A stretch of DNA of 64,000 nt. Source: a bacterium. Lineage in GTDB: Bacteria; Hinthialibacterota; Hinthialibacteria; Hinthialibacterales; Hinthialibacteraceae. The stretch covers positions 1,312,001-1,376,000 of the forward strand of contig CAXXMV010000002.1 in NCBI GenBank assembly GCA_963662285.2, written 5' to 3'. Below the pieces are notes generated by a model, which searched no databases, was not told the DNA's origin, and saw only the letters and a program-made list of their open reading frames with translations. Below are positions 58,751-59,893 of the stretch, in pieces. Position 1 is the stretch's first letter. Each line of letters begins with the position of its first letter. A program made the translations under genes and the position numbers.

Positions 58751-59893
58751 TTAACGCAATTTAACGGTTTTCATGACCTGGCGCAGGGTCTCAAGGTTCT
58801 TTTGCAGTTCAGGATTCTTGAAATGCTCCCGAACCGGCGCCAGTAGATCGGCGATGCTTTGGGCGAGAGCTGTTTTAAGGTCCATGGGGTGAAGTTGCTT
58901 CTCACCGAAACAGGTGGTCAGTTCTTCCAGGGTATTAAAGGTCAAATCGCCGCCCCATTCTTCTTTACGCTTGATCTCCAGCGGGCCGCGTCCTAACGCA
59001 TAGACCAGATGCTGCGCCCAATTCAAGACTGGATTAAAGTCGGTCTCGCCTTCAGGGCAGAATGCTTTTTTCATTTTTTTGGCGATGACGTCCGGTTCGT
59101 CGGTAATGAAGACGGCGGTTTCGGGTTTCGACTTGCTCATCTTCATGGCCATCCAGACTTCCTGCATACGGTCGGGATCGATAGGCCACATAGGCGGTTT
59201 GCCCAAACCGATCAAAAGATGGTGATGCACCGCCATAGGCGTAAGCTGCTCGCCGGATTCGGACATAAGCGGCATGGTCTTCATCTGGTTGGCTACATCC
59301 AGCGCTACTACATGGGCTTTTCGCTGATCGGTGCCCGCCTGCGCCAGATTGACGCCCAGCGCGTAGATATCCGCCACCTGCATGGGTGGGTAAACCAATT
59401 TGGCGAAATCAACCGACTCGCCTTCAGCGCGTCCCAGAATGGTGATGGAGCGCATGATGCGTTTTAGGGTGGTGTTTTTACATACTTCTATAAAAGCAGT
59501 CCAGTATTCAGGACGTTTCTGGTATAGATCAGAACCCAGGACGACATTCAATTTATCCGGGTCGCCGCCAACCGCCTTGAGGCAGCTTTTCAGCCCTTCG
59601 GCGAAATAGCCATAGGCGAATGAACGGATCTGTTCGATGTCGCCGCCCAGTTTGTCGTTGATCCAACTGTGCCAGTCGGCCAGAAAGAGAGTACATTCCA
59701 CTCCGGCTTTCTGAAAATCAGCCACTTTAGCCATGCATTGGATTCCGGTGCCAAGATGAATCTCGCCGGATATTTCAAATCCAATGTAATGGCGCAACGG
59801 GATATCTTTTTCCAGATACTCGCGTAAACGGCTTTCGGTTAGTACTTCCTGGGTATTGGCTTTGATAAGGTCGAATCGGTCGTTTATATTCAT
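58751..59893 (-). CDS. tyrS: Tyrosine--tRNA ligase, archaeal/eukaryotic type
   Basis: YIGFEISGEIHLG, ADWHSWINDK, YPPMQVADI, GTDQRKAH, KMSKS, KAFCP, WGGDLTF and LHPMDLK motifs; no bacterial S4-like C-terminal domain. Confidence 0.93.
   Translation of the reverse strand: MNINDRFDLIKANTQEVLTESRLREYLEKDIPLRHYIGFEISGEIHLGTGIQCMAKVADFQKAGVECTLFLADWHSWINDKLGGDIEQIRSFAYGYFAEGLKSCLKAVGGDPDKLNVVLGSDLYQKRPEYWTAFIEVCKNTTLKRIMRSITILGRAEGESVDFAKLVYPPMQVADIYALGVNLAQAGTDQRKAHVVALDVANQMKTMPLMSESGEQLTPMAVHHHLLIGLGKPPMWPIDPDRMQEVWMAMKMSKSKPETAVFITDEPDVIAKKMKKAFCPEGETDFNPVLNWAQHLVYALGRGPLEIKRKEEWGGDLTFNTLEELTTCFGEKQLHPMDLKTALAQSIADLLAPVREHFKNPELQKNLETLRQVMKTVKLR

What the first reader, a model, noticed from the sequence alone, without database searches (positions are those of the whole stretch)
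58751..59893. TyrRS motifs match the archaeal enzyme closely
Seen: YIGFEISGEIHLG, YPPMQVADI, DQRKAH, IKRKEEWGGDLTF and LHPMDLK. From recall of M. jannaschii TyrRS, these correspond to YIGFEPSGKIHLG, YPIMQVNDI, EQRKIH (Arg contacting C1:G72), IKRPEKFGGDLT and LHPMDLK (anticodon-binding His/Asp). The FEISG/ADWH/INDKLGG variant and the insert before KMSKS point to the longer Thermococcales/Crenarchaeota-like subgroup (inference). Base composition looks similar to neighbouring housekeeping genes, suggesting an old transfer.
Basis: partly seen in the sequence, partly recalled or inferred. Interest (0 to 1): 0.7.

Follow-up and report, generated by a model that had tools for sequence, protein, structure and literature searches.

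The report
Archaeal-type TyrRS with rewritten bacterial tRNA-Tyr
A large-genome bacterium has swapped its own tyrosine-charging enzyme for an archaeal-type one and flipped the top two base pairs of its own tyrosine tRNA, which lies just upstream, to match; the same swap was known before only in tiny "candidate phyla radiation" bacteria.

Summary
Window 58751-59893 (-) encodes a 380-aa archaeal/eukaryal-type TyrRS: NF006330 scores 404.7 bits against a cut-off of 220, and it aligns over its full length to P. horikoshii 2CYC. It has no S4-like C-terminal domain.

The genome's only tRNA-Tyr lies 32 nt upstream on the same strand (59926-60008). It has a bacterial long variable arm but C1:G72, C2:G71 and A73.

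This gene is the only TyrRS in the assembly. In the phylum as held (35 genomes, probably Hinthialibacterota):
- 20 of 20 genomes of one family carry this enzyme and no bacterial tyrS.
- 14 of the 15 others carry bacterial tyrS.
- All 18 family tRNA-Tyr genes retrieved start with C1 and C2.
- All 14 retrieved from outside the family start with G1 and G2.

The family's enzymes form one clade. Their nearest relatives are Planctomycetota-labelled bacterial copies, not Thermococcales.

The same kind of system was published for CPR bacteria (Mukai et al. 2017). This is therefore a new, non-CPR member of a known kind, with a clear direction of change. Interest is moderate.

The parts
58751..59893 (-). 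tyrS: 380-aa archaeal/eukaryal-type tyrosyl-tRNA synthetase of the long subgroup, without an S4-like C-terminal domain. It is the only TyrRS found in the assembly.
   Evidence: ORF. NF006330 scores 404.7 bits against a cut-off of 220. 2cyc_A matches at 3.5e-127 over residues 1-372. It is the only PF00579 match in G000, and nothing in G000 reaches the TIGR00234 cut-off. No S4 domain, with a positive control. Foldseek's top hits are 2cyc, 7fg6 and 2cya.
59926..60008 (-). tRNA-Tyr(GUA), 83 nt without CCA, the only tRNA-Tyr gene in the genome. It has a bacterial class II body with a long variable arm, but an acceptor stem CCAGGGG/CCCCUGG, giving C1:G72, C2:G71, A3:U70 and discriminator A73.
   Evidence: ARAGORN. 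Rfam RF00005 scores 53.5 bits over model positions 1-71, with a 7-bp acceptor stem and a 12-nt insertion in the variable region. The sequence is printed. It is 88% identical over nt 4-79 to the G1:C72 tRNA-Tyr of G033, a genome of another family.
59894..59925 (-). 32-nt spacer between A73 of the tRNA and the ATG of tyrS. It starts with a T-rich tract and contains no promoter-like or terminator-like site on this strand.
   Evidence: Sequence; scan. A T-rich start of the spacer is seen in 17 of 17 family loci printed. The spacer is 31-209 nt long in 11 family loci.
59312..59329 (-). DQRKAH (residues 189-194). R191 and K192 align with M. jannaschii Arg174 and Lys175, which read C1 and G72. Q190 aligns with Gln173.
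   Evidence: HMMER stretch coordinates against 1j1u. BLASTP against short-type P0267 puts DQRK on positions 172-175. Residue roles come from PMC1934993 passages. The residues are invariant in 16 of 16 sequences of alignment A1.
59450..59452 (-). R148, which aligns with M. jannaschii Arg132 (water-mediated contact to C1).
   Evidence: for the alignment; for the role. Invariant in A1.
58880..58891 (-). H335-P-M-D338 in the anticodon-binding domain. H335 aligns with M. jannaschii His283 and D338 with Asp286 (G34 recognition). W313 (58955-58957) aligns with Phe261.
   Evidence: The ungapped HMMER stretch 8-61 to 251-304 of 1j1u. His283 stacking on G34 is stated in PMC1934993. The roles of Asp286 and Phe261 are recalled.
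59129..59143 (-). KMSKS class I signature (residues 251-255). The HIGH-type signature reads H-L-G at residues 46-48 (59750-59758).
   Evidence: Invariant in A1.
58114..58722 (-). hisH-like gene 28 nt downstream of tyrS on the same strand. It is a conserved neighbour within the family. It is not part of the aminoacylation pair and may be co-transcribed.
   Evidence: ORF. The order tRNA-Tyr, tyrS, hisH is kept in 3 of 3 other family genomes examined (G007, G012, G004). A weak promoter-like site (9 of 12) lies between tyrS and hisH. The name hisH comes from my reading of the translation and was not tested.

Best explanation
This gene is the cell's one working tyrosyl-tRNA synthetase. It is an archaeal/eukaryal-type enzyme that an ancestor of this bacterial family acquired by horizontal transfer, and it has fully replaced the bacterial TyrRS.

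Its substrate is the tRNA-Tyr(GUA) encoded 32 nt upstream. That tRNA is the lineage's own bacterial tRNA, with the long variable arm kept. Its top two acceptor pairs have been flipped from G1:C72/G2:C71 to C1:G72/C2:G71. The discriminator A73 and G34 are unchanged.

By homology with the M. jannaschii complex, the dimeric enzyme should read the tRNA as follows:
- C1:G72 through R191, K192 and R148.
- G34 through D338, H335 and W313.
- The variable arm is ignored, because the S4-like domain that binds it in bacterial enzymes is absent.

The tRNA and tyrS probably form one transcription unit, possibly continuing into hisH.

Shown here: the enzyme type, the missing domain, that it is the sole copy, the tRNA sequence and its linkage, and the family-versus-sister distribution.

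Inferred: the aminoacylation itself, which residues make which contacts, co-transcription, and the order of events (acquisition, a period with two non-cross-reacting pairs, rewriting of the native tRNA, loss of bacterial tyrS).
For: Enzyme type:
- NF006330 scores 404.7 bits against a cut-off of 220.
- It aligns over its full length to 2cyc, residues 1-372, E 3.5e-127.
- The AF2 model (mean pLDDT 74.6) hits P. horikoshii, N. equitans and A. pernix TyrRS first. No bacterial TyrRS appears in the listed top 50.
- Neither S4 nor SYY_C-terminal is found, whereas the G021 bacterial TyrRS control has both.
- The residues aligned to the M. jannaschii tyrosine pocket and tRNA contacts are invariant in A1.

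Sole copy:
- It is the only PF00579 match in G000.
- Nothing in G000 reaches the TIGR00234 cut-off.
- Bacterial tyrS is over the cut-off in 0 of 20 family genomes, against 14 of 15 other genomes of the phylum.
- NF006330 is over its cut-off in 20 of 20 family genomes and 0 of 15 others.
- BLAST with the G021 bacterial TyrRS finds no relic in any of the 20 family genomes.

tRNA partner:
- G000 has a single tRNA-Tyr among 44 tRNA genes.
- Rfam places C1:G72 and A73 with a long variable arm.
- All 18 family tRNA-Tyr genes retrieved start with C1, C2 and A3.
- All 14 retrieved from other families start with G1 and G2.
- In the alignment, only tRNA positions 1, 2, 71 and 72 fully separate the two groups.
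- Same-order family f2 reads GGAGGGG/CCCCUCC, so the difference is exactly the two flipped pairs.
- The tRNA body is 88% identical to a G1:C72 tRNA of another family.

Linkage:
- The tRNA lies on the same strand 31-209 nt upstream of tyrS in 11 of 11 family loci that have flanking sequence.

Single acquisition:
- The family's enzymes form one clade with support 100/92.

Precedent:
- Archaeal and eukaryal TyrRS need C1-G72 and A73 (PMC1934993).
Against: - No aminoacylation, expression or processing data exist. No RNA run is listed for this sequence.
- The assembly is 92.5% complete and demonstrably lacks at least one essential synthetase, TrpRS. Absence of a bacterial tyrS in G000 alone would therefore be weak. 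The argument rests on 20 of 20 family genomes.
- tRNA-Tyr was not retrieved for 2 of the 20 family genomes (G015, G017; no flank) or for 1 of the 15 others (G026).
- The tool warns that one search's empty answer has no in-call positive control.
- The residue mapping to M. jannaschii uses HMMER stretch coordinates and a proxy short-type sequence, not a printed 1j1u alignment.
- The AF2 model is poor (pLDDT under 50) over residues 152-195, the segment that holds DQRK.
- Archaeal-type TyrRS approaches the tRNA from the variable-loop side (PMC1934993). Tolerance of a long arm is assumed from the CPR precedent and was not tested.
- No sigma-70-like promoter was scored upstream of the tRNA. I saw -10-like hexamers only by eye.
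Confidence: 0.85

Rival explanations
1. The family ancestor received the gene directly from an archaeon of the Thermococcales or Crenarchaeota.
For: The best solved-structure match is P. horikoshii 2CYC (428 bits; Foldseek rank 1). The protein carries the long-subgroup motifs shared with Thermococcus loci.
Against: In the careful tree the family clade is nested with bacterial copies. Its sister is L107 (99/97), followed by L065/P0044/P0072 (99/95). Thermococcus (L121, L127) groups elsewhere. Identity to Thermococcus loci is 54-55%, against 60% to L065 and 55-58% to DPANN and Asgard loci. The backbone and the root are unresolved, so no archaeal donor can be named.
Confidence: 0.05
2. The gene is an extra, accessory TyrRS, for example a resistance, stress or specialised copy. 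On this reading the housekeeping bacterial TyrRS and a G1:C72 tRNA-Tyr sit in unassembled parts of the genome.
For: G000 is 92.5% complete and lacks TrpRS, so essential synthetase genes can be missing from it. Mukai et al. describe archaeal-type TrpRS-A coexisting with bacterial TrpRS.
Against: Bacterial tyrS is over the cut-off in 0 of 20 family genomes, 11 of which are at least 90% complete with at most 5% contamination. It is over the cut-off in 14 of 15 sister-family genomes. BLAST finds one tRNA-Tyr match per family genome, always the C1 form. The single tRNA-Tyr of G000 would be a poor substrate for a bacterial TyrRS by the 1:72 rule (PMC1934993).
Confidence: 0.04
3. The archaeal-type gene is an assembly or binning artefact, that is, archaeal DNA placed in a bacterial bin.
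For: Nearly all the related records are MAGs. CPR and DPANN bins are known to cross-contaminate (PMC5370408).
Against: The gene lies inside a 1.85-Mb contig between bacterial genes (fmt-like, an ECF sigma factor, hisH-like). It is next to a tRNA with a bacterial body. The block tRNA-Tyr, tyrS, hisH recurs in independent family assemblies. GC3 matches hisH and fmt.
Confidence: 0.01
4. The archaeal-like Tyr system is an ancestral bacterial state kept vertically in this family, rather than acquired.
For: Mukai et al. raise the idea that archaeal identities could be ancestral.
Against: Only 1 of the 6 family codes in the phylum has it. Both other families of the same order have bacterial tyrS and G1:C72. 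The enzyme clade is nested among sequences from other phyla. The tRNA body is of the bacterial class II type.
Confidence: 0.02

Closest known systems
Archaea/eukarya-type TyrRS with C1-G72 tRNA-Tyr in candidate phyla radiation bacteria (Mukai, Reynolds, Crnkovic, Soll 2017, Life 7:8; PMC5370408; main text parts 1-2 of 4 read, through the Discussion)
   Same: A bacterium whose TyrRS is of the archaeal type and whose tRNA-Tyr has C1-G72. 'In many cases' that tRNA keeps the bacterial variable arm, which the authors read as a bacterial tRNA that was converted.
   Different: That paper reports only Parcubacteria, Microgenomates, Dojkabacteria and Katanobacteria: small-genome, probably symbiotic CPR lineages. 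This host has a 7.3-Mb genome and belongs to another phylum. The state is fixed across a whole family, and sister families give the direction of change and its exact size (two base pairs). The tRNA-tyrS linkage is not mentioned for Tyr in the text I read. The paper's figures and supplements were not available to me.
Pyrococcus horikoshii TyrRS (PDB 2CYC) and Nanoarchaeum equitans TyrRS (7FG6)
   Same: Full-length collinear match (residues 1-372 to 1-370, 428 bits; 368 bits for 7fg6). The same long-subgroup motifs and the same insert before KMSKS.
   Different: HMMER marks roughly 60% of aligned positions as identical (my reading of the alignment). The Foldseek structural alignment gives 49%. 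The host is a bacterium and the substrate tRNA has a long variable arm. On the tree these archaea are not the nearest relatives.
M. jannaschii TyrRS-tRNA-Tyr complex (1J1U), the pair used as an orthogonal pair in E. coli
   Same: Same family. The C1, G72 and G34 contact residues are conserved by alignment. The logic that C1:G72 against G1:C72 prevents cross-charging between the two systems also applies (PMC1934993).
   Different: The M. jannaschii enzyme is 306 aa, about 74 residues shorter. Its tRNA is class I. The pair here is a natural hybrid of an archaeal-type enzyme and a class II tRNA.
Canonical bacterial TyrRS with an S4-like C-terminal domain (for example the 423-aa enzyme of same-order genome G021; T. 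thermophilus 1H3E in PMC1934993)
   Same: The same reaction and the same class Ic catalytic fold (PF00579).
   Different: The bacterial enzyme has PF22421 and PF01479 domains that bind the variable arm, and it reads G1:C72. The window protein has neither domain and falls below the TIGR00234 cut-off.

Membership tests
Archaeal/eukaryal-type TyrRS (NCBIfam NF006330 / PRK08560) | Whole-protein score over the curated cut-off | tested here: met
   404.7 bits against a cut-off of 220, residues 1-365 on profile positions 1-335 of 342. In the control genomes the model passes its cut-off only in the 4 archaea.
Archaeal/eukaryal-type TyrRS (NCBIfam NF006330 / PRK08560) | Class I catalytic domain with HIGH-type and KMSKS signatures and the tyrosine-pocket residues | tested here: met
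   PF00579 at 1.1e-38. H-L-G at 46-48 and KMSKS at 251-255. Y36, Q172, D175 and Q190 are invariant in A1. Q172, D175 and Q190 align with M. jannaschii 155, 158 and 173. Their pocket role is recalled.
Archaeal/eukaryal-type TyrRS (NCBIfam NF006330 / PRK08560) | No S4-like C-terminal domain | tested here: met
   No S4 or SYY_C-terminal match at E <= 1, while the bacterial control from G021 has both. The alignment to the 375-aa 2cyc leaves 8 residues unmatched. The model ends in helices of the anticodon-binding domain.
Archaeal/eukaryal-type TyrRS (NCBIfam NF006330 / PRK08560) | Residues that read C1:G72 and G34 | tested here: met
   R148, R191 and K192 align to Arg132, Arg174 and Lys175. H335, D338 and W313 align to His283, Asp286 and Phe261. 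This is by alignment only.
Archaeal/eukaryal-type TyrRS (NCBIfam NF006330 / PRK08560) | Tyrosylation of a C1:G72 tRNA-Tyr and not of a G1:C72 one | not testable with these tools
   Needs an aminoacylation assay.
Archaeal Tyr identity set (tRNA side) | C1:G72, A73 and G34 | tested here: met
   Seen in all 18 family tRNA-Tyr genes retrieved.
Archaeal Tyr identity set (tRNA side) | Class I tRNA with a short variable loop | tested here: not met
   The tRNA is 83 nt with a long variable arm (12-nt insertion against the Rfam consensus). Its body is 88% identical to the G1:C72 bacterial tRNA-Tyr of G033.
Bacterial TyrRS (TIGR00234 as used here; PF22421 and S4 C-terminal domain) | Score over the cut-off and presence of the C-terminal domain | tested here: not met
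   107.7 bits, below the cut-off of 113.8, and only residues 2-214 match. No C-terminal domain.
Long subgroup of archaeal-type TyrRS (P. horikoshii / N. equitans-like) | HSWINDKLGG block and an insert of about 35 residues before and around KMSKS relative to the M. jannaschii type | tested here: met
   The motif HSWINDKL served as the search pattern that recovered 523 relatives.
   In the careful tree the nearest rows are bacterial copies, and Thermococcus groups elsewhere. The backbone is unresolved. No locus among the 80 kept carried a Crenarchaeota label.
Bacterial 'archaeal Tyr identity' systems of Mukai et al. 2017 | Bacterial host, archaeal-type TyrRS, and tRNA-Tyr with C1-G72 that often keeps the variable arm | tested here: met
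   Bacterial context (fmt-like, ECF sigma, hisH-like genes; 1.85-Mb contig). Enzyme and tRNA as described above.
Bacterial 'archaeal Tyr identity' systems of Mukai et al. 2017 | [quoted passage not shown] | tested here: not met
   The genome is 7.29 Mb. The 87%-identical protein P0004 is named Candidatus Hinthialibacter sp., whose lineage is phylum Candidatus Hinthialibacterota. The assignment of G000 itself is an inference.

The most novel reading that the evidence does not exclude
A two-gene module, tRNA-Tyr(C1:G72/C2:G71) followed by archaeal-type tyrS, behaves as a self-sufficient aminoacylation pair that does not cross-react with the host's own. On this reading it has moved between bacterial phyla well outside the CPR (Planctomycetota-, Chloroflexota-, Dormibacterota-labelled genomes and this family), each time displacing the native pair.

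This family is the special case. The module's tRNA slot is filled by the host's own long-arm tRNA, with only its top two base pairs rewritten. That gives a natural minimal recipe for switching Tyr identity across the domain boundary.
Probability: 0.3. Interest if true: 0.7.

Novelty: new member of a known kind. Interest (0 to 1): 0.5.

Why it matters
The 1:72 pair of tRNA-Tyr is the textbook example of a tRNA identity rule that separates Bacteria from Archaea and Eukarya. It is also the basis of the most widely used orthogonal pair in genetic code expansion.

The one report of the rule being crossed in nature concerns CPR bacteria, which have small genomes. This case shows the same crossing fixed across a whole family of bacteria with large genomes. 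Sister families still carry the bacterial system, so the direction and the size of the change can be read directly:
- the enzyme was replaced;
- two base pairs were flipped;
- the variable arm was kept although its binding domain is gone.

That turns two questions into bench-testable ones: how an essential enzyme-tRNA pair gets replaced, and whether the long arm matters to an archaeal-type TyrRS. It also offers a natural pairing of a class II tRNA with an archaeal-type enzyme for orthogonality tests.

Practically, this gene should not be taken as contamination in genome quality checks.

Tried and rejected
Synteny. I tried to locate the ancestral site of the tRNA-Tyr. Genes flanking tRNA-Tyr in four outgroup genomes (G021, G029, G034, G028) have no counterparts near the window locus, and none of the window's ORFs from 50-64 kb map beside their tRNA-Tyr. 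I could not tell whether tyrS landed next to the native tRNA or the tRNA moved.

Relic of the bacterial tyrS. BLAST with the G021 enzyme found nothing in the 20 family genomes. The tool warns that an empty answer without a control shows little. A TIGR00234 hit in G008:C281 turned out to be a free-standing 58-aa S4-like ORF on a 38% GC contig. It is not a tyrS relic and is absent from G000.

TrpRS. It was not found in G000 with PF00579, with TIGR00233, or by tblastn with the G007 enzyme. Synteny around trpS in G007 is not conserved in G000, so I cannot separate deletion from an assembly gap.

Single against multiple entries into Bacteria. An AU test holding all 29 bacteria-labelled rows as one clade gave a log-likelihood drop of 27.26 and p-AU 0.052. 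This is not decisive, and I named the group after seeing the tree. The all-bacterial 26-row group of the quick tree (support 88) dissolved in the careful tree.

Expression. No RNA holder is listed for window 58000-60200, and read laying was not used. The promoter and terminator scan found nothing informative on the minus strand upstream of the tRNA. Rfam found no leader RNA such as a T-box, only the tRNA.

Literature. Searches found only PMC5370408 for archaeal-type TyrRS in bacteria. The Hinthialibacter description (PMC9324843) has 0 occurrences of 'tyrosyl', 'tRNA synthetase' or 'tRNA ligase'. Supplementary files and figures were not available, so the tree and tables of PMC5370408 may list lineages I could not see.

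Full report
1. What is at the coordinates

Window 58751-59893 on the minus strand is an intact ATG-initiated ORF of 380 codons. Pfam sees one domain, PF00579 (class I W/Y synthetases), at E 1.1e-38 over residues 32-351. NCBIfam separates the two kinds of TyrRS. NF006330 scores 404.7 bits against a cut-off of 220. In the control genomes that model passes its cut-off only in the four archaea. The general tyrS model TIGR00234 reaches 107.7 bits, below its cut-off of 113.8, and only over the catalytic half.

Against solved structures the best match is 2cyc_A (E 3.5e-127, residues 1-372 on 1-370), then 7fg6 and 2cya. 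Foldseek on an AF2 model gives the same order and names them P. horikoshii, N. equitans and A. pernix TyrRS. The model has mean pLDDT 74.6 and is poor over residues 152-195. No bacterial TyrRS appears in the listed top 50.

At E <= 1, Pfam finds no S4 or SYY_C-terminal domain in this protein. The 423-aa bacterial TyrRS of same-order genome G021, run in the same call, shows PF22421 (1.1e-19) and PF01479 (8.1e-06).

Relative to the 306-aa M. jannaschii enzyme, the protein carries about 14 extra residues in the catalytic domain, about 35 before and around KMSKS, and a C-terminal helix.

ARAGORN finds one tRNA in the window, tRNA-Tyr(GUA), directly upstream of tyrS on the same strand. It is the only tRNA-Tyr among the 44 tRNA genes of the 7.29-Mb assembly. 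ARAGORN draws an 8-bp stem by adding a -1:73 pair. Rfam's tRNA model fits the whole model to 59926-60008, with a 7-bp acceptor stem CCAGGGG/CCCCUGG, discriminator A, and a 12-nt insertion in the variable region (53.5 bits).

The tRNA therefore has the bacterial class II shape but carries C1:G72, the pair that defines archaeal and eukaryal tyrosine identity. Passages of PMC1934993 state that the lack of cross-reaction between the archaeal/eukaryal and the bacterial pairs most probably lies in C1-G72 against G1-C72. Thirty-two nucleotides separate A73 from the ATG.

3. It is the cell's only TyrRS, and this holds for the whole family

In G000 this gene is the only PF00579 match, and nothing reaches the TIGR00234 cut-off. 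One 92.5%-complete assembly proves little, and it demonstrably lacks TrpRS. I therefore searched all 35 species genomes held for the phylum.
- NF006330 is over its cut-off in 20 of 20 genomes of family code f1 (G000 included) and in 0 of 15 genomes of the other five family codes.
- Bacterial tyrS (TIGR00234) is over its cut-off in 0 of 20 f1 genomes and in 14 of 15 others. The miss is G034, which is 68% complete.
- BLAST with the G021 bacterial enzyme found no relic in the 20 f1 genomes (the tool notes the lack of an in-call control).

The phylum is probably Candidatus Hinthialibacterota (=OLB16). The 87%-identical protein P0004 bears the NCBI name Candidatus Hinthialibacter sp.. Assigning G000 itself to that phylum is an inference.

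4. The tRNA changed with the enzyme, by exactly two base pairs

I retrieved tRNA-Tyr from 18 of the 20 f1 genomes. G015 and G017 have no flank upstream of the gene. All 18 begin with C-C-A and end with U-G-G-A. All are 83-85 nt long with a variable arm.

I retrieved tRNA-Tyr from 14 of the 15 other genomes of the phylum; G026 was not retrieved. All 14 have G1:C72 and G2:C71 with a variable arm.

In an alignment of 17 f1 and 10 non-f1 sequences, the only columns with no shared letter between the two groups are tRNA positions 1, 2, 71 and 72. Family f2, in the same order, reads GGAGGGG/CCCCUCC in 4 of 4 genomes. The f1 stem differs from it only by flipping the top two pairs, and A3:U70 was already there.

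The rest of the molecule is native. The G000 tRNA is 88% identical over nt 4-79 to the G1:C72 tRNA of G033, and BLAST matches to non-f1 tRNAs stop short of both ends.

5. Linkage

The tRNA lies on the same strand 31-209 nt upstream of tyrS (mostly 31-73 nt) in 11 of 11 f1 loci with flanking sequence. The order tRNA-Tyr, tyrS, hisH is kept in 3 of 3 further f1 genomes examined. No terminator-like or promoter-like site was scored between the tRNA and tyrS. The spacer begins with a T-rich tract in 17 of 17 loci printed. Co-transcription is an inference. No RNA run was listed for this stretch.

6. How it most likely works

By alignment, R191 and K192 correspond to M. jannaschii Arg174 and Lys175, which read C1 and G72. 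R148 corresponds to Arg132, which makes a water-mediated contact to C1. H335 corresponds to His283, which stacks on G34. These roles come from PMC1934993, and the mapping. D338 and W313 correspond to Asp286 and Phe261, whose roles I recall rather than read. All of these residues except W313 are invariant in a 16-sequence alignment spanning the family and archaeal relatives.

I conclude that the enzyme charges the neighbouring tRNA through C1:G72, A73 and G34, and does not use the variable arm, whose binding domain is absent. C2:G71 may also matter. It is present in all 18 f1 tRNAs and in all 11 tRNA-Tyr genes I retrieved from other bacteria-labelled genomes with this enzyme type. In G000 it also distinguishes tRNA-Tyr from the three tRNA-Pro genes, which have C1:G72, A73 and G2.

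7. Origin

GC and GC3 (51.1% and 59.8%) sit at the 92nd and 97th percentile of 3027 long ORFs. They match hisH (52.1/60.1) and fmt (53.0/57.6). Together with presence in all 18 genus codes of the family, this supports an old transfer.

For the tree I used the search for related loci, which kept the best 80 of 523 confirmed relatives. I added family loci and more distant representatives.
- The quick tree has 101 rows. Six rows were dropped as duplicates or fragments.
- The careful tree has 57 rows that I chose from those 101: all bacteria-labelled clades, a thinned sample of DPANN, Asgard and Thermococcus, and 4 distant rows.
- In the careful tree the 13 family rows form one clade (100/92).
- Its sister is L107, a Planctomycetota-labelled MAG with a long branch, from an unpublished genome (99/97).
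- Next comes L065/P0044/P0072, of which L065 is Planctomycetota-labelled (99/95).
- Deeper branches are unresolved. Thermococcus groups elsewhere. No rooting is reliable.

Hence there was one acquisition in the family ancestor. The nearest known copies are bacterial, and no archaeal donor can be named. An AU test of a single clade for all 29 bacteria-labelled rows is undecided (p 0.052).

8. Wider context seen on the way

Fourteen of the 80 loci are bacteria-labelled and lie outside this family: Planctomycetota, Chloroflexota, Dormibacteria, Peribacteria, Patescibacteria, Saccharibacteria, one 'Gammaproteobacteria' and one 'bacterium'.
- Seven of the 14 have a tRNA-Tyr with C1 and C2 on the same strand 13-122 nt upstream of tyrS. 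None of the 60 archaea-labelled loci has one.
- Six of those seven tRNAs are class I.
- Four further genomes carry an unlinked tRNA-Tyr with C1 and C2.
- Five of five non-CPR genomes checked (G041-G045) have no bacterial tyrS over the cut-off.

The two Planctomycetota-labelled lineages closest to the family use class I tRNAs (L107, and G045's L172). This family alone within that clade kept and rewrote its own long-arm tRNA. Labels are the submitters', and bins can be contaminated.

9. Comparison with what is known, and novelty

Mukai et al. 2017 (PMC5370408; main text through the Discussion read) reported archaea/eukarya-type TyrRS with C1-G72 tRNA-Tyr, often with a variable arm, in four CPR phyla. 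They called it the first evidence of such systems in bacteria.

Seven literature searches found no other report. The paper describing Ca. Hinthialibacter does not mention the enzyme. I could not see the figures or supplements of either paper.

The finding is thus a new member of a known kind. Its added value is a non-CPR host with a large genome, family-wide fixation, sister families that define the two-pair switch, and a conserved tRNA-tyrS arrangement.

10. Verdict

It is not supported on the Thermococcales/Crenarchaeota affinity, and it is incomplete without the tRNA.

Confidence in the main explanation is 0.85. Interest is 0.5.

Noticed in passing
G000 whole assembly; tRNA-Trp at G000:C6:1804497-1804571: No tryptophanyl-tRNA synthetase is found in the assembly. 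PF00579 and TIGR00233 match only tyrS, and tblastn with the 336-aa TrpRS of relative G007 finds nothing. A bacterial-type tRNA-Trp (A1:U72, G73) is present. Eighteen of the 19 other family genomes show a second PF00579-like frame of 330-400 aa. This is probably an assembly gap (completeness 92.5%).
   Followed up: partly
window 59894-59925, and the same position in 16 other family loci (L018-L035): A T-rich tract starts directly after A73 of the tRNA-Tyr in 17 of 17 family loci printed. CCA is not encoded in families f1, f2, f3 and f6, but it is encoded in f5. The tract could be a processing or attenuation signal between the tRNA and tyrS.
   Followed up: no
loci L065, L071, L100, L101, L107-L109, L111, L115, L120, L126, L134, L136, L137: Long archaeal-type TyrRS genes occur in MAGs labelled Planctomycetota, Chloroflexota (Anaerolineae, Dehalococcoidia) and Dormibacteria, as well as in CPR groups. 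Seven of the 14 have a tRNA-Tyr with C1 and C2 just upstream. Five of five genomes checked lack a bacterial tyrS. L107 belongs to the unpublished genome G041.
   Followed up: partly
L056 (G008:C281:1-1500), about 497-673, minus strand: [quoted passage not shown] It lies on a 38% GC contig of a family genome and is not present in G000.
   Followed up: partly
window 59009-59467 (+): A 152-aa ORF lies antisense inside tyrS. Its translated similarity in relatives (38-42%) is what an antisense frame of a conserved gene gives, so it is most likely not a gene.
   Followed up: no
G000:C6:52554-52639: ARAGORN calls an 86-nt 'tRNA-?(Trp|Leu)' with a two-base anticodon. This is either an odd tRNA-like element or a false call.
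   Followed up: no
window 56573-57854 (-): An ECF-type sigma factor-like ORF (214 aa) is followed by a 181-aa ORF with one hydrophobic segment, the usual layout of a sigma/anti-sigma pair. This comes from my reading of the translations only.
   Followed up: no
window 52001-54000: This is the lowest GC stretch of the window (35.6%, against 44-47% around it).
   Followed up: no
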